From Acaryochloris marina MBIC11017 (lineage in GTDB: Bacteria; Cyanobacteriota; Cyanobacteriia; Thermosynechococcales; Thermosynechococcaceae), in the NCBI RefSeq assembly GCF_000018105.1, contig NC_009926.1, forward strand, positions 90,001-122,000: a stretch of DNA of 32,000 nucleotides, written 5' to 3'. Made by a program: the position numbers and the translations under genes. The notes under the pieces are model-generated. The model was not told the DNA's origin, searched no databases, and saw only the letters and a list, made by a program, of their open reading frames with translations. Positions within the stretch are counted from its first letter, which is position 1. Each line of letters opens with the position of its first letter. This document shows positions 2 to 30,014 of this stretch, piece by piece.

Positions 2-844
2 TACCAGGAGCAACTTCAGACCCCCGAAGACTTAGCAAATCTCTCTGGGAAAGAATTCACACGACTCCTGAAATATGCGGTTGAGTCTCAGGGGGTTGAT
101 CACCTTCGCAGTGAACTATTGACCCGGTTATACGCTGAGCAACTAGCCGTACAGGATCTCTACCTATTGCTCTTTCAGTCCAAAGAACTTGAGCTACATC
201 AGCAAGTGATTCAGTATCTGTCTAGCCATATCCATGATGCGGCGAGTGTGATCACCATTGCCTCCAATCGAGAAGGGAACTGGGAAGCATTTAAATATCT
301 AGAAGCGGAGAATAAACCACCATTCCATGTTTGGCTAGAGGTGAAAATTTCTGGAGACACTTTAACGACGATTCATCCCGCTACCCATTCCCGCAAACAA
401 CCCGCTCGTCATCACGCTTGTTTGATATGGATAGAAGCTTATCTCCAGACTAGCTTAGTCTCACCAGAGCAACGAGCACAGCCAGTACTACCTGAGCCGC
501 AGTTCAAGTCTGGTAATGAAGACATAAAACGAGTAACAGCACCCTTATCCAAATCAATGCATACGGCATTGGTGAAGCCCCTTAAGGAGGGGCAGAACTT
601 TGTCGGGATGCTGGTTGATGTTTGTCAAACCTTAAGATGGGAGACCCCTGTGTACACAATGGACAGCTCCGATGAATGGTTTATCTGCGAGTGTGAGTTA
701 TCGGTTTTAGGTCAGCAGCTTGAAGGGAGTGGGGTAGCAAAGAAGAAGAAATTGGCGAAGAGTATCGCCGCTAGAGAGATACTGGAGCAATTGAGAGAAC
801 GAGGTCAACAGCAATTGCAAGAGTGGCTGGAGAGAGCAACTTAA
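2..844 (+). CDS. Partial CDS (5' end outside window): protein with a double-stranded-RNA-binding-domain-like C-terminus
   Basis: The frame of listed ORF 119..844 stays open back to nt 2 with no stop, so the N-terminus lies upstream of the window. The last ~70 aa (NFVGMLVDVCQTLRWETPVY...WFICECELSV...GSGVAKKKKLAKSIAAREILEQL) fit the dsRBD signature, including G-x-G-x-x-KK-x-A-x-x-x-AA. The rest is unrecognised. Confidence 0.55.
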   Translation, partial: YQEQLQTPEDLANLSGKEFTRLLKYAVESQGVDHLRSELLTRLYAEQLAVQDLYLLLFQSKELELHQQVIQYLSSHIHDAASVITIASNREGNWEAFKYLEAENKPPFHVWLEVKISGDTLTTIHPATHSRKQPARHHACLIWIEAYLQTSLVSPEQRAQPVLPEPQFKSGNEDIKRVTAPLSKSMHTALVKPLKEGQNFVGMLVDVCQTLRWETPVYTMDSSDEWFICECELSVLGQQLEGSGVAKKKKLAKSIAAREILEQLRERGQQQLQEWLERAT

Positions 845-860
845 CCGCATAGAGAAAACT

Positions 861-894
861 CTCTCCCAGTCCATTCTTCCTGAGACTGGGAGAG
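861..894. terminator. Hairpin terminator shared by two convergent genes
   Basis: Perfect 11-bp inverted repeat CTCTCCCAGTC (861-871) / GACTGGGAGAG (884-894) with a 12-nt loop. On the minus strand the stem is followed by AGTTTTCTC, which fits an intrinsic terminator for the rbp gene. It also lies 17 nt after the plus-strand stop at 844. Confidence 0.6.
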
Positions 895-918
895 CCCATC
901 ATCGAATTTCAGATTGCG

Positions 919-1206
919 TTAAAAACGGTTTCGACCACTAAAGTTGTTATTACCTCTATTGTTCTCACGGGGTCTAGCCTTGTTCACTTTGAGTGTTCGC
1001 CCCATCCATTCAGCCCCTTCGAGTTCTTCAATAGCCTTGGATTCTTCGGCATCGTTGCCCAATTCAACAAAGGCAAATCCTCGCATTCTGCCAGTCTCGC
1101 GGTCTTTGGGAACATGAACGTTAGAGACGGCCCCATATTCAGCAAACACGGCCTGAATTTCATCTTGGGTAACGTCGTAAGAAAGGTTACCAACGTAAAT
1201 CGACAT
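919..1206 (-). CDS. RRM-type RNA-binding protein (cyanobacterial Rbp family, short C-terminal tail)
   Basis: MSIYVGNLSYDV (RNP2) and RGFAFVEL (RNP1) motifs are present. The 95-aa product ends RENNRGNNNFSGRNRF. I chose the internal ATG at 1206 (CAT at 1204-1206) because homologues start at MSIYVGNL; the ORF-track start at 1323 adds a non-homologous 39 aa. Confidence 0.9.
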   Translation of the reverse strand: MSIYVGNLSYDVTQDEIQAVFAEYGAVSNVHVPKDRETGRMRGFAFVELGNDAEESKAIEELEGAEWMGRTLKVNKARPRENNRGNNNFSGRNRF

Positions 1207-1410
1207 AAACAAATATCCAAAATCAATAAGGTGAGGAGATATAGATTTCGGTGCGCGGTCTTGGGAATTAAACTGGCGGATACCAAACAATTCTGAAAAC
1301 AAACGTAAAACCGATACTTGCATCTCAATTGCAATACTAACTGATCCCCAATTTTCCGTTTAGGTGAACTAATAAACTTTACAGATATTTAGGTTAGTAA
1401 AGATTAAAAT

Positions 1411-1485
1411 TTTATCCCCAGATTTTCCCCACATTTCCCACAATATTTCCCATGTTATCCACATCTGATGGGATGATTTCCACAG
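1411..1485. promoter_or_regulatory. Phased array of six TT(T/A)TCC(C)(C)AC(A)-like motifs in the divergent intergenic region
   Basis: The TCC cores start at 1415, 1426, 1436, 1448, 1458 and 1479, giving spacings of 11, 10, 12, 10 and 21 nt (about one helical turn). The array lies 205-280 nt upstream of the rbp ATG and ~310-380 nt upstream of the ATG at 1793. Confidence 0.4.
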
Positions 1486-1792
1486 GTCAATACTGTAGGG
1501 CTTGATGTTCAGCTATTTCTGTGGAATATTCTAGAAACTGAAGTCAGCTTATTCTATGATAGATATGGCTTTGAGGCCATTAAATGTATTTCAAAAATAG
1601 ATTGACATTCTCGTAGGTTGGTAGCAAGATATAACTCCCAGCGATAAGGCTTGCACTCAACTTAACAAGCTGAAGGGCGGAGGAGTTTTACCACCAGCTT
1701 GGTTAGCTCATGAGGGCAACATTTGTTGTGCTTAGTTTTTGAAATAAAAACCATCGTTGATAACCCTACTATTTGAGAAGAGTAACCACTTC

Positions 1793-2005
1793 ATGTCCAC
1801 TACGATTAGCATATTGGCCGATATCCCTGAAGAGCTACATGATGCCTTGCGAGGTTATTTAGACACCCATCCTGATTGGGATCAGAGTCGGGTTCTTTCA
1901 GCGGCGCTGTCGTTATTCTTGATGCAGAATGGCACAACAGATCGCCGTACAACTCGTGTGTATTTAGATAGTCTCTTTAGAAGAGAACTACCCACTGCCT
2001 GCTAA
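1793..2005 (+). CDS. Small conserved cyanobacterial protein (DUF2811-like)
   Basis: LADIPEELHDALRGYLDTHPDWDQSRVLSAALSLFLMQNG matches my memory of the cyanobacteria-restricted DUF2811 family. I preferred ATG 1793 (MSTTISIL) over the TTG-type track start at 1757. Confidence 0.55.
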   Translation: MSTTISILADIPEELHDALRGYLDTHPDWDQSRVLSAALSLFLMQNGTTDRRTTRVYLDSLFRRELPTAC

Positions 2006-2144
2006 TGACCAATCTCCAGCCCTCTTTCAATCTGTCCGTTCGACTTCAAAGCCAATAAATAACGATCGCAATAGCCAGTTTCATTTGCGAAAAACCTTCA
2101 CTTGATTGCTAAAGGCCATAGCAGCTTGAATCGAATCACAATTA

Positions 2145-2555
2145 GTGGTGACTAATTCTTCACTAAAAAATGGAAACTATGTCTTGGAAGAACAGGTTTT
2201 ATACCGGATAGTTACAATTTTGTCCTTTTTTATCATTGCCACTTTATTCCTCAACCGCAGTGATGCCTTCCCCGTCAATTTACCCCGGGCAAAGACAGTA
2301 AAACCTCAGCTATTGCCCAAGGTAACGGTCACGATTGATGTGCAGGGGGATTCAGCCCTCAATCGAGAACCCATTCAGCTCAATTCTCTTGAAGCATAAG
2401 TGAAGGAGCTAACTGATTCAGCTGACAAGGTTGTGGTGGTGATTCATGCAGATGACCAAGTAAGGCATGGCCGCGTCGTGACGGTGATGGATCGCATTCG
2501 CGTAATTGAAGGCGCGAAATTAGCCATGCAAGTGTCTCAGGTCCTAGTTCGGTGA
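2145..2555 (+). pseudogene. exbD: ExbD/TolR-family biopolymer transport protein interrupted by an in-frame TAA
   Basis: LSFFIIATLFLNRSDAFPVNLPRA...KVTVTIDVQGDSALNREPIQLNSLEA is followed by TAA at 2397-2399. The same frame then continues for 51 codons (VKELTDSADKVVVVIHADDQVRHGRVVTVMDRIRVIEGAKLAM...) to TGA at 2553-2555, which is the conserved ExbD C-terminal block. The segment before the TM helix looks ~5 aa short and lacks the conserved membrane Asp. There is no exbB neighbour. Confidence 0.6.
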
Positions 2556-2592
2556 TATTACTCAGGGCACCTAGCTACGCTTTTTATAGATT

Positions 2593-2853
2593 ATGGAAAC
2601 ATCAAATAACCCTATTTCCAGATGTTCCCATATATCGATGAGCTCCCCATCCCAGCAACAATTGATTCATTACCTTCAAACCGATTTAGGGGTTTCTGAA
2701 AAAGCGATTGATCTTGCTTTGCGTCTTCAACAGCCTTTACAGGGGTCGCTTCATATCCTCCTATGGCAGTATGGCTTGATCAACATCGAACAGCTTGGCA
2801 AAGCTATTGAGTGGTTGATGACTGAAAGAGGGGAGACTACAAGCAAGGAATGA
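2593..2853 (+). CDS. Small conserved cyanobacterial protein (DUF2949-like)
   Basis: LIHYLQTDLGVSEKAIDLALRL...LHILLWQYGLINIEQLGKAIEWL resembles the cyanobacterial DUF2949 pattern (from memory). An alternative start is ATG 2638 (MSSPSQQQL). Confidence 0.5.
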   Translation: METSNNPISRCSHISMSSPSQQQLIHYLQTDLGVSEKAIDLALRLQQPLQGSLHILLWQYGLINIEQLGKAIEWLMTERGETTSKE

Positions 2854-3490
2854 TACTCTGACTGATGCCTTGGAGGGGCACCGTTAGACTGTTGGCGATG
2901 CTACTTCTGGTGAAATTTTCCTTGCTACTCTCACTGATGTTGAGAGAAAGCGTAAATATTTCACAGCAATTTTCAACTCTCTTGCCAATCATTGATCAGT
3001 CAATACCTGAAGCTGCGAGAATATTCCTTAGATCAGGTATTCAGAACTGATATTCCCATAAATTTTTAGTATATCACGGCAAAAACTTTAGTATTTTTAG
3101 ACTTCCAACAAAATTCGCCTCATAATCTGAGGCATCGCAAGGTAAGCCCCACCAGCTCAAAGCTGAACATCAGAAAAGTTTGTCTGATTCGGCAAATTAT
3201 TTCTCCTCAAAACCACGGACGTTTCGGCAAATTTATATTTTGTTTGGAAATTATATTGAGTAATTTCCCTGTCGTCAGGGAGATGGGATAAAAGCCACGA
3301 TCAAGGGTGTGCAGTAGGGTACCCCTGTTTTTCCCAATATCTTCAGTTGGCGGAATGTCCAAGTGTCTCATTATCAATAATTCCCACTTGAGAGGGTTAG
3401 TGAAACACCTGACCATTTTTGAAAAGAACGGTCTTTACCCAAACACATACAGCTTGGTCGAGCTGGGTCAACTAATCAGGAGAATACATC

Positions 3491-4957
3491 ATGAGTAATC
3501 CATTCGCTCAGCTGCTGGCCCAGCAGTTACACACTCTTGTCAAAATAAGAAATTGCTCATCGCATCAGGAGAAGGGGTTCGCACTCCCTCTCGCCATGGG
3601 GTTAGGCTTCGTTATGATCTTGCTGGGGATGTCCTCCATGATTATGGCGCAGAGTGATCGGATCACTGCTTGGAATCGTAAAGAATCTGGTGCAAGTTTA
3701 GCCGTATCAGAAGGAGGAATGGCTCGCACCCTGGCCCAACTCACTCAAACGGATAACCGGATCTTATTGACTCGAAACTATGACACCATCAATCCCAAGA
3801 CTGGAACCACCTATCTAGGGCCTGATGGCATTCTCAATTCTGGGGACGAAGAGCCTGCCACAGTGGATGAATGGACAGGGTATACGGGCAGCAGCTCAAC
3901 GCCCTGTGATGCAACTGCAAAGACAATAACCCCAAATGTCACTTTTTCAGGAGCGATGAGCTCAGGGGGCCAATTTCAGCTCAAAGCCTATCGATATAAT
4001 CCCACGGATCAAACCGGGACACTCCTCGTTGAGGGTCAACATGGAGAGAGAATATCCCATATTCTCTCTACCTTGGTCATCCAGTCAGAGATTGAGAATT
4101 TCCCAGGGGTTCTGGCCATGCAGGGAGCCGTTATTCGAGGACGTACTCTTATTGGTCAACATGCCAATCTTTACTACGATCCCGCCTGGTCCGCGGACAC
4201 CAGCTTAACGGATAAGTCAGCACCGAGTGATAGCGACCGTGCGAGCTATCTCAATGCGGTTTACTCAACAGCGCAAGATGGTCCAGGTAATGATTTGATT
4301 GCTGGCAACATTGTGGGATGCCAGATTACCCAAACACTGTCGGTGGATTTACCCACAACGGTGACGAGTTTAGGTGAAGTTAAGAGTAGCACCACTCTTA
4401 CTGCAGCCAACAGCCCCTACCATATCGAAGAACTGGAACTGGATGGTACCGATGTCGTTACCGTGGACACGACAGATGGTCCTGTCTACCTGTATGTCAC
4501 TGACTCCTTTGAATTACGAGGCAATGCTCAACTGAGAAATATCCGCACGGATGGCGAATCTCCACGAGTGGGTGATTTGAGGATTATTGTTCATGATGCA
4601 GACGATGGAACACCTCCCATCGAACTGTACGATCAATCCTGCATTGACACCGCTTTTGTCTATAACAAGATTAACGACCTCCAGCTACAAGGTTCAGGCG
4701 ATGGCTGTCCCAGCAGTGGCAATACTAACTTTGATGGGGTGGCATGGGTCGAAGATGTCATCAGTTCCATCAACATAAATCCCCATACCCGAATCGTGCC
4801 TGCTGAGGATGATGACATCATCACGACGAATGGCAGTACATCCGGCATTCGGGTGCCCAACGATGTGTCCAGTCTGGCTGATGTCGTGAGTGGTATTGGT
4901 ATCACTCCGACGAATAAATTTGGCTATGTCAAAAGTTGGCAACGGGTGAGGTTTTAG
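3491..4957 (+). CDS. Large PilX_N-type pilus-associated protein, first gene of the minor-pilin cluster
   Basis: The N-terminal EKGFALPLAMGLGFVMILLGMSSMIMAQ hydrophobic segment resembles PilX N-terminal domains. AGGAGA at 3478-3483 lies 7 nt before the ATG. The stop (4955-4957) is 2 nt before the ATG of the next prepilin-type gene. The remainder is a Thr/Ser/Asp/Gly-rich extracellular-looking region that I do not recognise. Confidence 0.6.
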   Translation: MSNPFAQLLAQQLHTLVKIRNCSSHQEKGFALPLAMGLGFVMILLGMSSMIMAQSDRITAWNRKESGASLAVSEGGMARTLAQLTQTDNRILLTRNYDTINPKTGTTYLGPDGILNSGDEEPATVDEWTGYTGSSSTPCDATAKTITPNVTFSGAMSSGGQFQLKAYRYNPTDQTGTLLVEGQHGERISHILSTLVIQSEIENFPGVLAMQGAVIRGRTLIGQHANLYYDPAWSADTSLTDKSAPSDSDRASYLNAVYSTAQDGPGNDLIAGNIVGCQITQTLSVDLPTTVTSLGEVKSSTTLTAANSPYHIEELELDGTDVVTVDTTDGPVYLYVTDSFELRGNAQLRNIRTDGESPRVGDLRIIVHDADDGTPPIELYDQSCIDTAFVYNKINDLQLQGSGDGCPSSGNTNFDGVAWVEDVISSININPHTRIVPAEDDDIITTNGSTSGIRVPNDVSSLADVVSGIGITPTNKFGYVKSWQRVRF

Positions 4958-4959
4958 TC

Positions 4960-5526
4960 ATGCATCTCAATCGGTGGTTGTGGTTGTACTTGAAGCGACC
5001 GAAAGCATCTTCAGGGGTTGATTCTTTAAAATCACTCTCTGCGAAGAGTGGAGGGTTTACCTTAATCGAGGTGTTGGTGGCGATGATTGTTGCTGCTGTG
5101 TTTGTCTCCATGACCATGCAGGCCATGGTAACTTCAGCAGCCTTTCGGGTGGTTGCTACACAATACGACGAGGCCGTGAGTTGGATTCAGGAAGATTTAG
5201 AAACCGTTGTCAATCAAGCGGCACAATATGAGATTACGACGCAACCCTACTCCTCTCGGTGTCTAGCCACCCTCAGTAGTGATGGGTTTGCATCCGGATT
5301 TCTCAATGACTCAGCTACGGGATTAGGGGGAGCTTCCACAACCATTGGCCCTAGAACACTGGGTGGGAAATACTATACCCTCACTCGTACTGCTAACTAT
5401 GCAAGTTCTTCTGACCCCTATCGGTTGTTAAATGTCACCTATCAAGTGACGGAACAAGGGGATAGTAAACCGATTGCCACGGTAGATACTGAGGTCATTC
5501 CCCATGCCGTATTCAAATGTCCCTAA
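4960..5526 (+). CDS. Prepilin-type N-terminal cleavage/methylation domain protein (PilV-like minor pilin)
   Basis: GGFTLIEVLVAMIVAAVFVSMTMQAM carries the G|FTLIE motif with Glu+5 and a hydrophobic helix. I chose ATG 4960, directly after the upstream TAG (4955-4957) and with GGTGAG upstream. The leader is unusually long (~32 aa), so the true start is uncertain. Confidence 0.8.
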   Translation: MHLNRWLWLYLKRPKASSGVDSLKSLSAKSGGFTLIEVLVAMIVAAVFVSMTMQAMVTSAAFRVVATQYDEAVSWIQEDLETVVNQAAQYEITTQPYSSRCLATLSSDGFASGFLNDSATGLGGASTTIGPRTLGGKYYTLTRTANYASSSDPYRLLNVTYQVTEQGDSKPIATVDTEVIPHAVFKCP

Positions 5527-25451: not shown

Positions 25452-26372
25452 TTAGGAATTCTCCAAATTTTGCAACCAAGCATTCAAATCATCTAAGCTC
25501 TCGAATTCCAAAAGTGCTTCGCTCAGTGATTCAAGTTGATCAACCTCTAAGGATTGAATTTGAGTTTCCATTTCGGGAGAAAGCTGCTTAAACTTCCGAT
25601 TAAGTTGACGTAAAACAATACTCACCTCTCCTTTTTGCCAACCCCTTTCTTCCCAGCTAGTCAAAGTTTGCATGATGGCTTCTCGTTCTCCTAATTCTAA
25701 TGTATCAATTTCTGTTTGAAAGCGTTGCTCCTCGTTTGCTTCTAGTCGGAGATACGTGTCGATAAATTGAGAAATGAACTCTGTTCTAGCTGGATCAAGC
25801 TGCAAGGTAGCCAGCATCCTCAAACACTCCACTTTGACTCGTGGCCGATCCTCTTTAGCAATCTGCATCTTAGCCATCAATGCCGAAGCCACAGGATTAT
25901 GCTGCCTCAGATAGTCTCGCCAGTTCAAACGATTGAGTTGAATGGCTCGGAAATTGAACTGCAAGACCTGGAAATCGGGAAACTCAACTTTGTAGCTGCT
26001 CTCTGCTTCCTTTTGAGGACTGTCATAGGAGAAAATCACCACAGGATAAATGGGCAAATCATATTTCTCATGCAGCCTCCCAAAGTAGCAGAACATGCGT
26101 TTCTCAAAGTCCGCTTGAACTGACGATTGGGGTTCTATGTGAAATAGAAAGTAGCTGTCCTGTCCTCGAAACTGGACTTGAGCCAGCAAGTCAATGATAC
26201 GCTTCTCCTCCGCGCCAATACTGCTGAAGACTTCCTGATACAAAAACGTGACGGGTCCGCGCTCCACATAGTCTAAGACTTGAGGTAAAAACAAATCTAA
26301 GAATTCCCAAAAGAACGTCTCGATCAGTTCTTTGAACAGACCATCATGGTCAATGGATTCCCGTTGTGTCAC
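25452..26372 (-). CDS. Rpn-family recombination-promoting nuclease / putative transposase with a DUF4351-type C-terminus
   Basis: N-terminal DHDGLFKELIETFFWEFLDLFLP is followed by a PD-(D/E)xK-like IDLLAQV...LFHIEPQS core. The C-terminus is the repetitive helical tail LRQLNRKFKQLSPEMETQIQSLEVDQLESLSEALLEF. GTG start. Confidence 0.75.
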   Translation of the reverse strand: MTQRESIDHDGLFKELIETFFWEFLDLFLPQVLDYVERGPVTFLYQEVFSSIGAEEKRIIDLLAQVQFRGQDSYFLFHIEPQSSVQADFEKRMFCYFGRLHEKYDLPIYPVVIFSYDSPQKEAESSYKVEFPDFQVLQFNFRAIQLNRLNWRDYLRQHNPVASALMAKMQIAKEDRPRVKVECLRMLATLQLDPARTEFISQFIDTYLRLEANEEQRFQTEIDTLELGEREAIMQTLTSWEERGWQKGEVSIVLRQLNRKFKQLSPEMETQIQSLEVDQLESLSEALLEFESLDDLNAWLQNLENS

Positions 26373-26485: not shown

Positions 26486-27151
26486 TCAAGACTGGCTGTT
26501 CAAGGCACCCGACTTAATCCAGACATTCTGATCGTAAAACCCACCCCGCTGCTCAAACTGAAATCCACCGAGTAGCATTCCTAGCCAGATAGGTACCAGT
26601 GACAGCTGTAGCTCCTGTTTTAGCTCGACCAAAGGCACCATCCCAGATGTCCCCTGTAAGTACGTTGAGATGGCATGTACCCATGCCAAAACATCCTCTT
26701 CTTCCAAGACTTGCAAGACTTCATCAGGTTGCTCAACCCTTAACTCAGTCTCCAGCTCTTCCAGCAACGATGCCTTGTCCTTGAGCACAACGATCGACTC
26801 ACACTCCTCTTTGGGCAATGTTCGCCGAGTCACCGGGTCGGGTTCAGCAATTAGATCATCGTCTAACACCATGGATTGCCGAACCATCCCCATTTCGTCA
26901 TCCAAATCAAGGATGGGACCGTCATCGTTGTGGGCATCTCGCCAGTCCCTGAGGAAGACCTCCGCTCGCCGACTCAAGATTTCTGCCATCTGCAATAGGG
27001 CAGTCCCCGCCGTGGATAACTTCTCCTCTAATGGCAACTGGGCGACTACTAAGTCCAATCGCTCCTGCAACTGCTGGAGGTCGCTCTCCACTGGAACCGC
27101 TTCCGCTTGATTCAACTGCTGCCAAAGATCGAGTTCCAGTTGCAATGCCAT
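26486..27151 (-). CDS. Acidic hypothetical protein (221 aa) with kleisin(ScpA)-like terminal motifs
   Basis: ATG 27151 is preceded by GGAGG (reverse complement of 27161-27165), which overlaps the upstream stop. The composition is strongly Asp/Glu/Leu-rich. The ends (STAGTALLQMAEILSRRAEVFL and LVELKQELQLSLVPIWLGMLLGGFQFEQRGGFYDQNVWI) resemble ScpA ends at motif level only. Confidence 0.55.
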   Translation of the reverse strand: MALQLELDLWQQLNQAEAVPVESDLQQLQERLDLVVAQLPLEEKLSTAGTALLQMAEILSRRAEVFLRDWRDAHNDDGPILDLDDEMGMVRQSMVLDDDLIAEPDPVTRRTLPKEECESIVVLKDKASLLEELETELRVEQPDEVLQVLEEEDVLAWVHAISTYLQGTSGMVPLVELKQELQLSLVPIWLGMLLGGFQFEQRGGFYDQNVWIKSGALNSQS

Positions 27152-27164
27152 CGTGAACAACCTC

Positions 27165-27644
27165 CTACGGGAACAAAGGGCAGGGACGAATCGGGCATTG
27201 ACTTGGATCCACTTCGACTTGTGAATCAAACTGATGCAGTACTTTTCCGTCTAAATGCTCAGAGAAGCGGTTGAGTATATTCCTGGAGTATTTCGTCACA
27301 TCAGAGTTAGTCCACCCCAGGGTATGGACAGGCTCAACGATCGCAACCCGCTTTTGGCCTATCCACAGCTCCGCTGACATGGCATGAAGGGGCGCATCCC
27401 TTCTCGCTCGATACATCCGTCGAATAGCCGCAGGTTTGACGGGGACTTCCACCGTAACTTCAGGAATCAGCTTCCCCGTCTGTAGTTGATATTTCCGTTT
27501 CTTATTTCGGTTATAGCGATCGCGGTGCTTATACGAGGAACGTCGCACATGGCAACGCTGACCCACCCAGCACTCCTTTAACTTTGCTTGGTCCACGGGT
27601 AGCTTGGAACATCGACGGCATTTTTCTGCGATTGCACGGGCCAT
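27165..27644 (-). CDS. Basic hypothetical protein (159 aa) with an N-terminal CxxC-x12-Cx5C cluster
   Basis: ATG 27644 lies 4 nt after the hicB stop. Cys9/12/25/31 are followed by HVRRSSYKHRDRYNRNKKRKY. No family recognised. Confidence 0.55.
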   Translation of the reverse strand: MARAIAEKCRRCSKLPVDQAKLKECWVGQRCHVRRSSYKHRDRYNRNKKRKYQLQTGKLIPEVTVEVPVKPAAIRRMYRARRDAPLHAMSAELWIGQKRVAIVEPVHTLGWTNSDVTKYSRNILNRFSEHLDGKVLHQFDSQVEVDPSQCPIRPCPLFP

Positions 27645-27648
27645 CGTC

Positions 27649-27870
27649 CTAAACCATTTGCATCATTTGAGGGGCAGGCAAAGTCCAGCCTTCCGCTTCG
27701 TAGAATTCCATCAAAGATTCTATGGCTTCCTGCCCATGTTTGGCAGCCTCTTCATAGGTTTGGCCATCAGTAATGGGCTGCATCACCCGGTCAAATTCTG
27801 GTAACGACACTACATAGCATTGATCCTCTTCCGACCACTCGATCACCATTCGATACTTAGTCTGAGTCAT
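27649..27870 (-). CDS. hicB: HicB-family antitoxin
   Basis: MTQTKYRMVIEWSEEDQCYVVSLPEF...GQTYEEAAKHGQEAIESLMEFYEAEGWTLPAP is a typical short HicB. I chose ATG 27870, which overlaps the hicA 3' end by 14 nt. Confidence 0.8.
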   Translation of the reverse strand: MTQTKYRMVIEWSEEDQCYVVSLPEFDRVMQPITDGQTYEEAAKHGQEAIESLMEFYEAEGWTLPAPQMMQMV

Positions 27871-28072
27871 TCGATAATGCCTCCAATTGCTGTAGCGCTT
27901 TCTGCACTTTGCGTTCCAAATAGAGTGGGGCATCTGCCCCATCTTTGCGGGCAACCGTGATCACCTGGGGCAATTGAGGATGCTTCCAGTTACTGTGAGA
28001 GCCTTTACCCGGTCGGGAGATAAACCCAGCCTCCTTGAGCATAGCCTTGATCTCACGAATCTTCTTGGGCAT
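27857..28072 (-). CDS. hicA: HicA-family mRNA interferase toxin (YcfA-like)
   Basis: MPKKIREIKAMLKEAGFISRPGKGSHSNWKHPQLPQVITVARKDGADAPLYLERKV matches the HicA/YcfA pattern (GKGSH.N..HP). Confidence 0.85.
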   Translation of the reverse strand: MPKKIREIKAMLKEAGFISRPGKGSHSNWKHPQLPQVITVARKDGADAPLYLERKVQKALQQLEALSNDSD

Positions 28073-28125
28073 CCACCTCTCTCTCCAGCGATGATGTAGC
28101 AGATGACCTCACTCTATCATGCTTA

Positions 28126-28147
28126 TTAGTCAAAGTTTAGTCAAAGT
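28126..28147. promoter_or_regulatory. Perfect tandem 11-bp direct repeat upstream of hicA (candidate operator)
   Basis: TTAGTCAAAGT occurs twice back to back (28126-28136 and 28137-28147), 54-75 nt upstream of the hicA ATG (28072). Confidence 0.35.
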
Positions 28148-28215
28148 CCAAATAATGATTTATTGGTCTATGGGTACGGAAATGACCATTGACGTAAGCT
28201 TAATTTTCTAAATTA

Positions 28216-28244
28216 GGTCACATCAATATGACCATAGTTATAAT
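28216..28244 (+). promoter_or_regulatory. Candidate phd/vapC promoter with an overlapping inverted repeat
   Basis: A perfect TATAAT lies at 28239-28244, 31 nt before ATG 28276. GGTCA-N8-TGACC (28216-28233) spans the -35 to spacer region, the usual position for a TA autoregulatory operator. Confidence 0.4.
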
Positions 28245-28275
28245 ATTTGCATAATCAATTTTTAAGGGGTTGAAC

Positions 28276-28506
28276 ATGCAGCAGATGGGAGCGGGTCAAT
28301 TCAAAGCCCAATGTTTGAAGCTGATGGATCAGGTGCAGCAGACCCATGAAGAGATTGTGATTACTAAACATGGGCAGCCGGTGGCTAAGTTAGTGCCGGT
28401 TGAGAATGACTCCCAAACGTCAATTTTGGGCTATATGAAGGACTCGGTTCAGGTGACGGGTGATATTGTCTCGCCAGTGGATGAGGTTTGGGAGGCAGAT
28501 ACCTAG
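28276..28506 (+). CDS. Phd/YefM-family antitoxin
   Basis: FKAQCLKLMDQVQQTHEEIVITKHGQPVAKLVPV is the Phd/YefM N-terminal fold signature. AAGGGG lies 6 nt upstream of ATG 28276; the track start at 28270 is TTG. Confidence 0.85.
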   Translation: MQQMGAGQFKAQCLKLMDQVQQTHEEIVITKHGQPVAKLVPVENDSQTSILGYMKDSVQVTGDIVSPVDEVWEADT

Positions 28507-28928
28507 TGTCTCAGGACTTACTCGTGTTGGATACCCATATCTGGATTTGGCTCTTGAATGGGAATATAGGCCGTCTGTCATCTGAGGGACTATCTGCCAT
28601 TGAGAAGGCTAGTCAATCGGCACAGTTGGGGGTCAGTGCCATCTCTGTTTGGGAGGTGGGGATGTTGGAGTCAAAGGGACGACTGCGGTTGTCAAAGGGT
28701 TGTTTGGATTGGGTGCGGGAAGCGTTGTCTGCCCCTGGCTTGAGGCTATTGCCGCTAACCCCTGAAATCGCGATTGAAAGCTCTCGGTTGCCAGGGCAAA
28801 TCCATGGTGATCCAGCAGATCGGATACTGGCAGCTACGGCTCGGATCTTAAATGGGACATTGGTGACCCAAGATCTAAAGTTGTTGTCATATGGAGAGCA
28901 GGCTTATCTTTCTGTGTTGCAAGGGTAG
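28506..28928 (+). CDS. vapC: PIN-domain toxin (VapC family)
   Basis: LVLDTHIWIWLL carries the N-terminal acidic residue. WEVGMLESKG and GDPADRILAATARILNGTLVTQD are typical PIN/VapC blocks. The GTG start overlaps the antitoxin TAG (TAGTG at 28504-28508); the alternative track start is 28488. Confidence 0.85.
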   Translation: MSQDLLVLDTHIWIWLLNGNIGRLSSEGLSAIEKASQSAQLGVSAISVWEVGMLESKGRLRLSKGCLDWVREALSAPGLRLLPLTPEIAIESSRLPGQIHGDPADRILAATARILNGTLVTQDLKLLSYGEQAYLSVLQG

Positions 28929-28931
28929 TGG

Positions 28932-30014
28932 GTGGATGAAAGATATCGATGGGATGCGATCGCAATGGAAACATCAGGGTTAGTTCGCTTAGAAATCGAT
29001 GAGTCGGCAGTTGATGTCGATTTGCTTAGAGCAGTCTTGGTAGAGAAAACCAAACCCTCCACGCGGGAAGGGTATACCAAGGATCTGGTGGACTTCTTTT
29101 TATTCGTGACCCAGGGAGAATCGGTCTATGAAATTGAGGGGCCGAAGCGTAAGAGTGAGATAAAGGCTCAGGTGAAAGGGGAACTATCCCGGCTGAGTCA
29201 GTCTTTTGTGGGGATTGGCCGATTGAAAGCTTTAGAATTAGCCGCTCGGTATCGAGAATGTATGATGCAGCGAGGGTTGCAGGCGAATACGATTAATCGA
29301 CGATTGTCCGCAGTGAAGTCCATGGTGAGGATGGCCAGACGTTTGGAGATGTGTGATTGGACATTAGCGGAAGTAGATGGTTTAACGGTAAACCCCTATC
29401 GAGATACCAGAGGGATTACAGCCTCTCAATTTCGACTGATGATGGTGTTCGTCAATCGGTTTTCTTTGGCTGGAGCCAGGGATTTCGCCATGTTGACGCT
29501 GTTGTGGGAGGCGGGATTGCGACGGTCTGAGCTGGTGGGTTGTGATGTCCGTCATTTTGACTCGGAGCAAAAACGGTTGTCGATTTTGGGGAAGGGAAGG
29601 AACGAAAGAGAGTGGATTGATTTGACGGAAAGTGGGGTACTAGCGATTTCAGAGTGGCTGGAAAAGCGAGAAGTTTATGCCCTCACGGAGCCGTTGTTTA
29701 TCTCGTTGGATCGGGCGAATTGGGGGTCGAGGTTGTCGGGGACATCGGTGTATCGGATTGTTCGGGCTCTAGCAAAGAAGGCTGGGGTGAGCGAGAACTT
29801 TGGGCCTCATAAGATACGTCACAGTGGCACAACAACCTATTTGGAAATGACGGGTGGAGATTTGCGGGGGGCACAAGCCTATTCCCGACACGCCAATCTC
29901 AATACACTCAAGTTCTATGATGACAATCGCAAGCAGCTTCAGAAAAAGGCTTCTGCAAAATTGGCAGAGACCATTTCTTGGAAGAAGAATACTGATGAAT
30001 CCGCAAATGAATAG
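28932..30014 (+). CDS. Tyrosine recombinase / phage-type integrase (XerC/D-like)
   Basis: AGLRRSELVGCDVRHF (Arg I), HKIRHSGTT (HxxR) and the catalytic Tyr in LKFYDDN are present. It starts 3 nt after the vapC stop (GTG 28932; alternative ATG 28965). Confidence 0.85.
   Translation: MDERYRWDAIAMETSGLVRLEIDESAVDVDLLRAVLVEKTKPSTREGYTKDLVDFFLFVTQGESVYEIEGPKRKSEIKAQVKGELSRLSQSFVGIGRLKALELAARYRECMMQRGLQANTINRRLSAVKSMVRMARRLEMCDWTLAEVDGLTVNPYRDTRGITASQFRLMMVFVNRFSLAGARDFAMLTLLWEAGLRRSELVGCDVRHFDSEQKRLSILGKGRNEREWIDLTESGVLAISEWLEKREVYALTEPLFISLDRANWGSRLSGTSVYRIVRALAKKAGVSENFGPHKIRHSGTTTYLEMTGGDLRGAQAYSRHANLNTLKFYDDNRKQLQKKASAKLAETISWKKNTDESANE

What the first reader, a model, noticed from the sequence alone, without database searches (positions are those of the whole stretch)
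26486..28072. hicA-hicB chained to two unrecognised genes: a Cys4 basic protein and an acidic protein with kleisin-like ends
Seen in the sequence: four minus-strand ORFs are packed with junctions of -14, +4 and +13 nt. The hicA stop is at 27857 and the hicB ATG at 27870. The hicB stop is at 27649 and the ORF159 ATG at 27644. The ORF159 stop is at 27165 and the ORF221 ATG at 27151, with GGAGG on the stop codon. ORF159 has CxxC-x12-Cx5C (C9, C12, C25, C31) followed by a very basic tract. ORF221 is strongly acidic. Its N-terminal STAGTALLQMAEILSRRAEVFL and C-terminal LVELKQELQLSLVPIWLGMLLGGFQFEQRGGFYDQNVWI resemble the helical N-end and winged-helix C-end of ScpA-type kleisins, at motif level only. 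Inference: HicAB is normally a self-contained two-gene unit. A four-gene transcription unit sitting between an Rpn nuclease, vapBC and an integrase is the context expected for an uncharacterised defence, addiction or element-maintenance module. I cannot place either extra protein in a known family.
Basis: partly seen in the sequence, partly recalled or inferred. Interest (0 to 1): 0.7.

Follow-up and report, generated by a model that had tools for sequence, protein, structure and literature searches.

The report
Conserved cyanobacterial plasmid gene pair
The two unrecognised genes behind hicAB form a conserved two-protein unit found only on large cyanobacterial plasmids, usually next to a dedicated DNA recombinase and the partition genes, so it is most likely an undescribed plasmid-maintenance module and not a kleisin or a defence system.

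Summary
Four minus-strand genes (hicA, hicB, ORF159, ORF221) have junctions of -14, +4 and +13 nt, on an Acaryochloris marina plasmid 99.3% identical to pREC3.

ORF159 (basic, eight conserved Cys/His) and ORF221 (acidic; helical N-domain, disordered middle, C-terminal winged helix) match no Pfam, NCBIfam, PADLOC, PHROGs, PDB or Foldseek entry. They are large families: at least 271 clusters at 50% identity and at least 1,337 at 90%.

They are adjacent in 63 of 76 loci and fused into one polypeptide in three lineages. Every hit on a complete replicon was a plasmid.

A dedicated Xer-like tyrosine recombinase family is on 51 of 66 listed plasmids that carry them. It lies within 6 kb in 45 of those 51 (2.6 expected). 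parAB and toxin-antitoxin cassettes recur nearby.

hicAB with a short HicB is a conserved head of the operon only in Acaryochloris. In A. thomasi the locus reads parB-parA-Int, divergent from hicA-hicB-ORF159-ORF221. In the window the dedicated recombinase and parAB are replaced by phd-vapC and an unrelated integrase.

Kleisin homology failed every test. Best reading: a two-subunit DNA-binding accessory or regulator of plasmid site-specific recombination and stability. The function is inferred, not shown.

The parts
27857..28072 (-). hicA toxin gene (71 aa), first gene of the operon
   Evidence: Pfam HicA_toxin scores 40.8 bits, E 2.3e-10. RefSeq calls it a HicA family toxin. It is 85% identical to the HicA at the same position in A. 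thomasi and 64-66% identical to those of pREC4 and pMB08.
27649..27870 (-). hicB antitoxin gene, short form (73 aa). It has only the N-terminal HicB fold and no C-terminal DNA-binding domain. It overlaps hicA by 14 nt.
   Evidence: HicB_lk_antitox scores 23.3 bits and covers model positions 1-62 of 123. RefSeq calls it a HicB family antitoxin. The 73-aa orthologues upstream of the pair on pREC4, pMB08 and A. thomasi are 55-58% identical.
27165..27644 (-). ORF159: a basic protein (pI 10.1). It has an N-terminal Cys4 motif (C9, C12, C25, C31), a basic helix at 36-56 and a beta-beta-beta-alpha-beta domain at 72-145. H87, H107, C150 and C155 are also conserved.
   Evidence: Family alignment A2. 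AF2 model, pLDDT 77. 271 clusters at 50% identity. No match in Pfam, NCBIfam, PADLOC, PHROGs, PDB or Foldseek. The C-domain is duplicated or triplicated in some homologues.
26486..27151 (-). ORF221: an acidic protein (pI 4.1). It has an N-terminal three-helix domain (2-75), a disordered acidic middle with an almost invariant P-x10-VRQ-x-M-x2-D motif (P79-D97), and a C-terminal winged helix (154-213).
   Evidence: Alignments A1 and A3. AF2 model, pLDDT 70.5. At least 1,337 clusters at 90% identity, all named hypothetical. Foldseek gives only generic winged-helix hits with E of 0.2 or more. Fused to ORF159-like modules in P0231, P0257 and P0279.
28073..28269 (.). Divergent control region between the hicA operon and the phd-vapC-int operon. 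It holds a tandem repeat, 2 x TTAGTCAAAGT (28126-28147), that overlaps the first hexamer of a minus-strand promoter-like site (28144-28116). A plus-strand promoter-like site lies at 28217-28244.
   Evidence: Tandem 12-nt repeats lie at the equivalent place upstream of hicA on pMB08 and pREC4. Any operator function is inferred.
28276..30014 (+). Neighbouring divergent operon (context): phd/yefM antitoxin (28276-28506), vapC PIN toxin (28506-28928) and a Xer-like tyrosine recombinase (longest ORF 28932-30014; RefSeq start equivalent to 28965). This recombinase is not the family that normally accompanies ORF159/ORF221.
   Evidence: Pfam and NCBIfam hits. RefSeq annotation. It is 25-28% identical, at about 50-70 bits, to the pair-linked recombinases. 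Its own family is common on small cyanobacterial plasmids.

Best explanation
The functional unit is ORF159 plus ORF221. The four-gene chain is a lineage-specific elaboration of it.

Shown:
- The two genes encode partners. They are adjacent and often overlapping across the cyanobacterial phylum, and fused into one chain in three lineages.
- Every hit on a complete replicon was a plasmid of 44 kb to 1.2 Mb, usually with one copy per plasmid.
- They travel with a dedicated Xer-like tyrosine recombinase family, and often with parAB and toxin-antitoxin cassettes.

Inferred mechanism:
- ORF159 binds plasmid DNA through its Zn-finger and basic helix.
- The ORF159 beta-domain, which is doubled in the fused forms, holds the conserved motif in the disordered middle of ORF221.
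- The ORF221 helical and winged-helix ends contact the recombinase or a second DNA segment.
- The complex then acts as an architectural or activating accessory, and probably as an autoregulator, for plasmid site-specific recombination. Multimer resolution that keeps low-copy plasmids segregable is the most likely reaction.

In Acaryochloris a hicAB cassette whose HicB lacks a DNA-binding domain has been captured at the head of the operon. It adds post-segregational killing and shares the promoter. In this window the dedicated recombinase and parAB have been swapped for phd-vapC and an unrelated plasmid recombinase.
For: Linkage of the two genes:
- ORF159 lies directly upstream of ORF221 in 63 of 76 loci with enough sequence.
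- The adjacent pair is on about 64-69 PLSDB plasmids.
- Three independent fusion proteins exist: P0231, P0257 and P0279.

Plasmid restriction:
- Every hit on a complete replicon is a plasmid.
- No contig among the listed hits is longer than 832 kb.

Recombinase linkage:
- It lies on the same strand directly upstream in Nostocales (32 of 63 loci).
- It lies downstream in Stanieria and L. boryana.
- It is divergent in Acaryochloris, Chroococcidiopsis, Leptolyngbya, Microcoleus and Phormidesmis, and at a fusion locus.
- These recombinases form one family, at 34-83% identity and about 100-560 bits. Unlinked integrases score about 40-60 bits against them.
- The family is on 51 of 66 listed plasmids with the pair, and within 6 kb in 45 of the 51, against 2.6 expected.

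Maintenance context:
- parAB is adjacent in several lineages.

Not the replication protein:
- A CyRepA1-family Rep is annotated elsewhere on the same Nostocales plasmids.

hicAB as a conserved head of the operon in Acaryochloris:
-.

Short HicB:
- 73 aa, covering HicB_lk_antitox model positions 1-62 of 123.
Against: - No recombination site or accessory DNA repeats could be identified. Inverted repeats upstream of the Nostoc recombinase are not enriched: 2 of 31 loci against 1.1 in shuffles.
- Many Pseudanabaena-type loci have parAB but no recombinase within 6 kb. On some of those plasmids the recombinase is 28-57 kb away.
- 15 of 66 listed plasmids, including pREC3 itself, show no listed member of the dedicated recombinase family.
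- This window holds only an unrelated integrase.
- Neither protein resembles any known recombination directionality or accessory factor.
- DNA binding, complex formation and any effect on recombination are inferred and untested.
Confidence: 0.45

Rival explanations
1. ORF159 and ORF221 are themselves a new type II toxin-antitoxin pair. ORF159 would be the basic toxin. ORF221 would be an acidic antitoxin with a disordered toxin-binding segment and a C-terminal winged helix for autoregulation. The window would then carry three addiction modules side by side.
For: - The pair is basic and acidic: pI 10.1 and 4.1.
- The genes are tightly coupled or overlapping.
- The order, with the candidate toxin first and a C-terminal DNA-binding domain in the second protein, matches hicAB and higBA.
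- The pair sits constantly among other TA cassettes.
- ORF221 is found without ORF159 where IS elements have inserted. No clear case of ORF159 alone was seen.
Against: - There is no similarity to any toxin or antitoxin family in Pfam, NCBIfam, PADLOC or PDB.
- Restriction to plasmids, about one copy per plasmid, and phylum-wide synteny with one recombinase family are unusual for TA families, which are patchy and also chromosomal.
- In Nostocales the pair is translationally coupled behind the recombinase gene.
- Covalent fusions carrying two ORF159 C-domains are hard to reconcile with a releasable toxin.
Confidence: 0.15
2. The pair is a centromere-binding or regulatory complex of the partition and maintenance region. 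It would work like a KorA/KorB- or ParG-type regulator that binds repeats upstream of the par and maintenance operons, independently of the recombinase.
For: - The pair is directly followed by parA-parB in Pseudanabaena-type loci.
- parAB lies near the pair in Acaryochloris, Leptolyngbya, Chroococcidiopsis, Nostoc and fusion loci.
- On pMB08 the motif ATTACATAA is repeated both upstream of hicA and between ORF221 and parA.
- A palindrome, TGTCGTATTTTAAAATACGACA, lies between ORF221 and parA in L009 and L097.
Against: - parA is within 6 kb in only 7 of 38 loci with long flanks, a weaker link than the recombinase.
- The repeats could equally be ParB or ParG sites.
- ParB or a small ParA partner is already encoded there.
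Confidence: 0.15
3. The pair is the replication initiator, or an origin-binding complex, of these large plasmids.
For: - There is about one copy per plasmid, and co-resident plasmids carry diverged paralogues.
- It lies in the backbone region near par genes.
- pCHRO.01 carries the pair but no CyRepA or CyRepX homologue according to Ohdate et al. 2024, PMC10899382, Supplementary Data 1.
- It lies within 10% of plasmid length from CyRepA1 in 8 of 15 plasmids.
Against: - A CyRepA1-family Rep is annotated separately on the same Nostocales plasmids, 3.5-137 kb away.
- The pair is absent from the small CyRepA1 plasmids in the same search.
- pREC2 and pREC3 coexist in one cell with pairs that are 98-99% identical at the protein level (97.4% at the DNA level), which a replication-specificity determinant would not allow.
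- No iterons were found, and there is no similarity to any Rep.
Confidence: 0.1
4. ORF221 is a kleisin-like bridging subunit of an SMC-type complex, with ORF159 as an accessory subunit.
For: - The predicted architecture, with a helical N-domain, a disordered middle and a C-terminal winged helix, is the kleisin layout.
- UniRef labels one cluster 'Segregation/condensation protein A'.
Against: - hhalign probability is 0.5% and E 0.12 against a ScpA sequence that was validated on PDB ScpA entries.
- None of 32 members matches the SMC_ScpA Pfam model.
- The Foldseek hits are generic ArsR-type or other winged helices. The 4i98 hit is chain C, which by my recollection of the entry is ScpB, at rank 42 and E 1.7.
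- No SMC, Muk or Jet-like ATPase is among the recurrent neighbours.
Confidence: 0.03
5. The pair is part of an anti-phage or anti-plasmid defence system.
For: - STAND NTPase (NACHT, NB-ARC), TIR and CHAT genes lie next to the pair in several loci.
- TA cassettes are nearby.
Against: - There is no PADLOC hit.
- Those neighbours vary between lineages. By my own knowledge, such genes are generally abundant in cyanobacterial genomes.
- The constant partners are a recombinase and par genes.
- The family is restricted to plasmids and is not found in chromosomal defence islands.
Confidence: 0.05

Closest known systems
Plasmid multimer-resolution systems built on tyrosine recombinases with accessory proteins (XerCD at cer/psi with ArgR and PepA; also ResD/rfsF of F and Cre/loxP of P1)
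   Same: A Xer-like tyrosine recombinase sits in the stability region of a low-copy plasmid, next to partition and addiction genes, as resD does beside ccdAB on F. It is accompanied by non-catalytic proteins that could impose topology or activation. (The F, P1 and cer facts are from my own knowledge. The linkage is.)
   Different: The accessory proteins here are plasmid-encoded, operonic with the recombinase, and unrelated in sequence and fold to ArgR, PepA, Xis, IHF or FtsK-gamma. No recombination site is known. The activity is untested. The window's copy lacks the dedicated recombinase.
HicAB type II toxin-antitoxin system
   Same: hicA and hicB in the window are true family members with the usual toxin-first order and overlapping genes.
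   Different: HicB is only 73 aa and lacks the RHH or HTH domain that normally autoregulates the operon. The cassette is co-oriented, 4 nt upstream of two further genes, in at least five Acaryochloris plasmid lineages. It is therefore not a self-contained two-gene unit here.
ScpA-type kleisins
   Same: The domain order is the same: a helical N-terminus, a disordered linker and a C-terminal winged helix.
   Different: There is no detectable sequence or profile homology, no kleisin-specific structural match and no SMC partner.
CyRepA/CyRepX replication proteins of large cyanobacterial plasmids (Ohdate et al. 2024, PMC10899382; Sakamaki et al. 2023, PMC10079941)
   Same: They are backbone genes of the same plasmids and were recognised only recently. 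They often lie within about 20 kb of the pair.
   Different: CyRep proteins are large, helicase- or primase-like and experimentally replicative. The CyRepA1 family (the one searched here) also occurs on small plasmids, and CyRepA and CyRepX homologues occur on chromosomes. The pair is small, non-enzymatic in appearance and found only on plasmids of 44 kb or more in this survey.

Membership tests
HicAB toxin-antitoxin (hicA, hicB) | HicA toxin domain | tested here: met
   PF07927 scores 40.8 bits against a cutoff of 27, E 2.3e-10.
HicAB toxin-antitoxin (hicA, hicB) | HicB N-terminal antitoxin fold encoded directly after hicA | tested here: inconclusive
   PF15919 scores 23.3 bits, below the cutoff of 27, over model positions 1-62 of 123. 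RefSeq names it a HicB family antitoxin. It overlaps hicA by 14 nt.
HicAB toxin-antitoxin (hicA, hicB) | C-terminal DNA-binding domain (RHH or HTH) in HicB for autoregulation | tested here: not met
   The protein ends at residue 73 and only the first half of the model is matched. The same 73-aa form is found on pREC4, pMB08 and A. thomasi.
Kleisin (ScpA/MksF/JetA type) for ORF221 | Sequence or profile similarity to a kleisin family | tested here: not met
   None of 32 members hits SMC_ScpA at E up to 5. hhalign of A3 against a validated ScpA gives probability 0.5%.
Kleisin (ScpA/MksF/JetA type) for ORF221 | N-terminal helical domain and C-terminal winged helix joined by a flexible linker | tested here: met
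   AF2 predicts helices 2-75, disorder 76-150 and a winged helix 154-213. The layout is generic, and Foldseek gives no kleisin-specific hit.
Kleisin (ScpA/MksF/JetA type) for ORF221 | Partner SMC-family ATPase encoded with it | tested here: not met
   Clustering of neighbours across 97 loci finds no SMC-like gene.
Type II toxin-antitoxin (ORF159/ORF221 as a new pair) | Two small co-transcribed genes, a basic toxin and an acidic antitoxin with a DNA-binding domain | tested here: met
   pI 10.1 and 4.1. The gap is 13 nt, or an overlap in other loci. A winged helix is predicted.
Type II toxin-antitoxin (ORF159/ORF221 as a new pair) | Homology of either protein to a known toxin or antitoxin, or demonstrated toxicity and neutralisation | tested here: not met
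   No hit in Pfam, NCBIfam, PADLOC, PDB or Foldseek. Toxicity cannot be tested with these tools.
Plasmid replication initiator | Similarity to a Rep family, or being the only Rep candidate next to iterons or an AT-rich origin | tested here: not met
   There is no Rep similarity. CyRepA1 is annotated elsewhere on the same plasmids. The flanks hold only a 2-copy 11-nt repeat.
Accessory factors of a tyrosine-recombinase system (multimer resolution or RDF-like) | Conserved genetic linkage to one recombinase family | tested here: met
   The dedicated recombinase is within 6 kb on 45 of 51 plasmids, against 2.6 expected. It forms one family in three different gene arrangements. This is not met for the window copy itself.
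Accessory factors of a tyrosine-recombinase system (multimer resolution or RDF-like) | Identifiable recombination core site with adjacent accessory binding sequences | tested here: inconclusive
   Inverted repeats are not enriched upstream of the Nostoc recombinase. One perfect 13-6-13 inverted repeat lies at fusion locus L107. Nothing comparable is in the window.
Accessory factors of a tyrosine-recombinase system (multimer resolution or RDF-like) | Physical interaction with the recombinase or DNA, and an effect on recombination | not testable with these tools
   This needs biochemistry or genetics.

The most novel reading that the evidence does not exclude
ORF159, ORF221 and their dedicated Xer-like recombinase form a previously unrecognised three-component site-specific recombination machine. 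It would be the standard multimer-resolution and stability system of large cyanobacterial plasmids. It would use two accessory proteins with no detectable relatives, one a two-site Zn protein and the other an acidic winged-helix adaptor. Toxin-antitoxin cassettes would be wired into the heads of its two divergent operons as a recurrent regulatory or addiction layer.
Probability: 0.3. Interest if true: 0.75.

Novelty: new variant of a known kind. Interest (0 to 1): 0.6.

Why it matters
Large plasmids carry much of the adaptive gene content of Nostoc, Acaryochloris, Pseudanabaena and related cyanobacteria. How they are maintained is barely understood. The first replication proteins for them, CyRepA and CyRepX, were identified only in 2023-2024.

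This work points to a second backbone module found only on plasmids. It consists of two unannotated protein families, with at least 1,300 sequence clusters in one of them, and a dedicated recombinase. If it is a resolution or stability system, three things follow:
- It explains how low-copy megaplasmids avoid multimer catastrophe.
- It gives a marker for recognising plasmid contigs in cyanobacterial assemblies and metagenome bins.
- It offers parts for stable cyanobacterial vectors.

The repeated placement of different toxin-antitoxin cassettes at the head of both operons also makes a testable case for TA modules acting as promoter-proximal controllers of maintenance genes.

Tried and rejected
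- **Family libraries.** Pfam, NCBIfam, PADLOC and PHROGs gave no hit for either unknown protein, tested singly and over all family members.
- **PDB profile searches.** Nothing scored below E 0.08.
- **Structure searches.** I ran Foldseek against PDB for both AF2 models, and against BFVD for ORF159. ORF221 gave only generic winged helices. ORF159 gave non-significant matches to the HIV RT p51 chain, Ppx/GppA and MreB, which by my own knowledge share an RNase H-like core. I do not claim an RNase H-like fold.
- **Kleisin test.** There was no homology to ORF221.
- **Recombination site near the Nostoc cassette.** Inverted repeats are not enriched. A shared k-mer turned out to be the recombinase coding start.
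- **Origin proximity.**
  - GC skew on one 92-kb plasmid puts the minimum by CyRepA1 and the maximum near the par genes and the triad. This is a single, noisy case.
  - The cassette is weakly enriched near record ends, 21 of 65 against 13 expected. I judge this uninformative.
- **Rep candidates on the 44-kb plasmid.** A Pfam scan of its unknown proteins found nothing.
- **Literature.** Searches for a described cyanobacterial plasmid resolution system, or for these genes, found nothing relevant.
- **The window's integrase as the cognate partner.** Rejected: 27% identity and 70 bits to the A. thomasi linked recombinase, and 25-28% and about 50-60 bits to the others.
Full report
**Observation**

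- hicA is 28072..27857.
- hicB is 27870..27649 and overlaps hicA by 14 nt.
- ORF159 is 27644..27165, after a 4-nt gap.
- ORF221 is 27151..26486, after a 13-nt gap, with GGAGG overlapping the ORF159 stop codon.

Pfam recognises HicA at 40.8 bits. It recognises HicB only weakly, at 23.3 bits over the first half of the model. The neighbours are a DUF4351/Rpn-like gene, phd-PIN and a tyrosine recombinase.

The window is an Acaryochloris marina plasmid. It is 99.3% identical to pREC3 of strain MBIC10699, where RefSeq annotates the same four CDS and calls the last two 'hypothetical protein'.

**The two unknown proteins**

Neither protein matches Pfam, NCBIfam, PADLOC or PHROGs. This also holds when every family member is scanned. 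Profiles of both families find nothing in the PDB.

*ORF221 (AF2 pLDDT 70.5)*
- A confident three-helix N-domain spans residues 2-75.
- A disordered acidic middle carries an almost invariant P-x10-VRQ-x-M-x2-D motif.
- A C-terminal winged helix spans residues 154-213.
- Foldseek returns only generic ArsR-type or other winged helices, at E of 0.2 or more.

*ORF159 (AF2 pLDDT 77)*
- The N-terminal Cys4 region is predicted with low confidence.
- A basic helix spans residues 36-56.
- A confident beta-beta-beta-alpha-beta domain spans residues 72-145.
- Across the family C9, C12, C25 and C31 are conserved, and so are H87, H107, C150 and C155. This suggests two metal sites.
- Foldseek finds nothing significant in PDB or BFVD.

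Both families are large. ORF159 has 271 clusters at 50% identity. ORF221 has at least 1,337 clusters at 90% identity, all unnamed apart from one UniRef label, 'Segregation/condensation protein A'.

**Kleisin idea**

I tested this directly. hhalign of the ORF221 family profile against it gives probability 0.5%. No SMC-like ATPase recurs in the neighbourhood. The domain layout is kleisin-like but generic. Membership is not supported.

**The pair is the unit**

- In loci from metagenomes, GTDB genomes and PLSDB plasmids, an ORF159 homologue lies directly upstream of the ORF221 homologue in 63 of 76 cases with enough sequence. Several exceptions are IS insertions.
- By tblastn, ORF221 is on 69 PLSDB plasmids and ORF159 on 64. 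These span Nostoc, Acaryochloris, Leptolyngbya, Pseudanabaena, Calothrix, Chroococcidiopsis, Stanieria and others, and range from 44 kb to 1.2 Mb. There is nearly always one place per plasmid.
- Every hit on a complete replicon is a plasmid. No listed contig exceeds 832 kb.
- Three independent clusters (P0231, P0257, P0279) encode one polypeptide. It has an ORF159 Zn-finger, two copies of the ORF159 beta-domain and a full ORF221 module. This is strong evidence that the two proteins act together.

**A dedicated recombinase**

In Nostocales a tyrosine recombinase of about 340 aa lies immediately upstream on the same strand, with gaps of about 3 nt. Examples are pCC7120alpha and the Nodularia plasmid.

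In other lineages the arrangement differs.
- It lies downstream on the same strand in Stanieria and L. boryana.
- It is divergent in Acaryochloris pREC1 (both copies), A. thomasi, Chroococcidiopsis, Leptolyngbya NIES-3755, Microcoleus and Phormidesmis, and at a fusion locus.

These recombinases form one family, at 34-83% identity and about 100-560 bits to one another. Unlinked integrases in the same loci score about 40-60 bits against them.

In PLSDB this family has the same taxonomic distribution as the pair.
- It is present on 51 of 66 listed plasmids that carry the pair.
- It lies within 6 kb in 45 of those 51, where 2.6 would be expected by chance.
- The lists were capped at 60 rows and related plasmids are not independent, so these counts are approximate.

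NCBIfam places these recombinases nearest XerC, XerD and XerA, far below the equivalog cutoffs.

**Maintenance context**

parA-parB follows the pair directly in Pseudanabaena-type loci and lies within a few kb in many others. ParM is also present in some Nostocales.

A CyRepA1-family replication gene is annotated elsewhere on the same Nostocales plasmids. It is never adjacent, at 3.5-137 kb away, but it lies within 10% of plasmid length in 8 of 15 cases. CyRepA1 also occurs on small plasmids that were not among the plasmids carrying the pair. The pair is therefore a backbone function distinct from replication initiation.

**hicAB**

Outside Acaryochloris the pair has no hicAB. Inside the genus the order hicA-hicB(73 aa)-ORF159-ORF221 recurs on pREC3 (the window), pREC4, pMB08 and two A. 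thomasi contigs.

HicA and HicB are better conserved than the pair.
- HicA is 64-85% identical and HicB 55-58%.
- Against pREC4 and pMB08, ORF159 is 29-30% identical and ORF221 34-38%. Against A. thomasi, ORF159 is 62-65% identical.

Other copies carry vapBC upstream and hicAB downstream (pREC1), or hicAB about 1 kb downstream (S15).

The upstream HicB is always the 73-aa form without a DNA-binding domain. The downstream HicBs are 109-113 aa. Tandem 11-12-nt repeats lie upstream of hicA in the three Acaryochloris loci I examined. I infer that the short-HicB cassette depends on another protein, possibly the pair, for operator binding. This is not shown.

**The window's variant**

In A. thomasi the locus reads parB-parA-Int, with the dedicated recombinase preceded on one of the two contigs by mazE-pemK. 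This operon is divergent from hicA-hicB-ORF159-ORF221.

In the window the divergent arm is phd-vapC-int instead. This integrase is unrelated to the dedicated family, at 27% identity and 70 bits. Its own family is typical of small cyanobacterial plasmids of 28-60 kb and also occurs on other plasmids.

pREC2 carries a 97%-identical copy of the pair together with the DUF4351 gene, with an IS5 element in place of hicAB.

**Interpretation**

The shown facts are partnership of the two proteins, plasmid restriction, recombinase linkage, and par and TA context. Together they point to a plasmid-maintenance nucleoprotein complex tied to site-specific recombination. Multimer resolution is the most economical role.

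The weaknesses are these.
- No recombination site was found.
- A large Pseudanabaena clade has no nearby recombinase.
- The window copy itself lacks the dedicated recombinase.

The rivals, in order of likelihood, are:
- a novel toxin-antitoxin pair;
- a partition or regulatory complex;
- a Rep;
- a defence system;
- a kleisin.

I found no published description of this cassette.

Noticed in passing
window 28276-30014; L099 1251-3662; L113 1915-4146; L116 3309-6135: A toxin-antitoxin cassette sits at the head of the recombinase operon in four lineages, each with a different TA family. These are phd-vapC-int (window), antitoxin-yhaV-int (pREC1), xre-RES-hyp-int (Chroococcidiopsis CCNUC1) and mazE-pemK-int (A. 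thomasi). TA or nuclease genes (hicAB, vapBC, RES, Uma2, DUF4058) also head the ORF159 operon.
   Followed up: partly
window 28932-30014: The window's integrase belongs to a Xer-like family that occurs mainly on small cyanobacterial plasmids of 28-60 kb, for example in Crinalium, Nostoc and Tolypothrix. It is also on pCC7120gamma (102 kb) and on some non-cyanobacterial plasmids. It may be a generic plasmid resolvase that displaced the dedicated recombinase here.
   Followed up: partly
window 28126-28147: A perfect tandem repeat, 2 x TTAGTCAAAGT, overlaps the first hexamer of the promoter-like site for the hicA operon. Analogous 12-nt tandem repeats lie upstream of hicA on pMB08 (GATTACATAAAA x2) and pREC4. 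On pMB08 the related motif TAATTACATAAT recurs three times between ORF221 and parA.
   Followed up: partly
window 25452-26372: The DUF4351/Rpn-like gene directly downstream of ORF221 sits at the same relative position beside the pair on pREC2. This suggests a recent inter-plasmid duplication of the segment. The N-terminal Rpn match is weak, at 25.8 bits against a cutoff of 52.
   Followed up: partly
L014 5117-7240; L099 4114-6153; L101-L103 about 700-5176: STAND NTPase genes (NACHT, NB-ARC) lie directly next to the pair in five Acaryochloris plasmid loci, with TIR-domain genes beside them in three of these. CHAT-TPR genes are frequent neighbours in Nostoc and Pseudanabaena loci. I do not know whether this is more than the general abundance of such genes.
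   Followed up: no
L107 1398-1429: A perfect 13-6-13 inverted repeat, ATATTCTAATATA-N6-TATATTAGAATAT, lies in the intergenic region between the divergent recombinase and an ORF159-ORF221 fusion gene. It has the geometry of a tyrosine-recombinase core site. No equivalent was found in the other loci I examined.
   Followed up: partly
L009 6839-6999; L097 10088-10109: A palindrome, TGTCGTATTTTAAAATACGACA, occurs in two to three copies in L009 and once in L097, between ORF221 and parA in Pseudanabaena-type loci. It could be a centromere, an operator or a binding site for the pair.
   Followed up: no
L114+L115 (Nodularia pUHCC0039a, 92 kb): The cumulative GC skew minimum is at 29.3 kb, next to the CyRepA1 gene. 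The maximum is at 78.2 kb, next to parAB and the recombinase-ORF159-ORF221 triad. At face value this places the triad near a terminus, but it is one noisy case and other plasmids do not reproduce it.
   Followed up: partly
P0173, P0260, P0164 (homologues): The ORF159 beta-domain behaves as an independent module. It is triplicated in P0173 and attached to a different, coiled-coil-like N-terminus in P0260. In P0164 a complete ORF159 module is followed by an unrelated C-terminal extension.
   Followed up: no
L116 8142-8579; L117 8127-8507: In A. thomasi a further small gene of 126-145 aa with no Pfam hit overlaps the end of the ORF221 homologue. It has no counterpart in the window.
   Followed up: no
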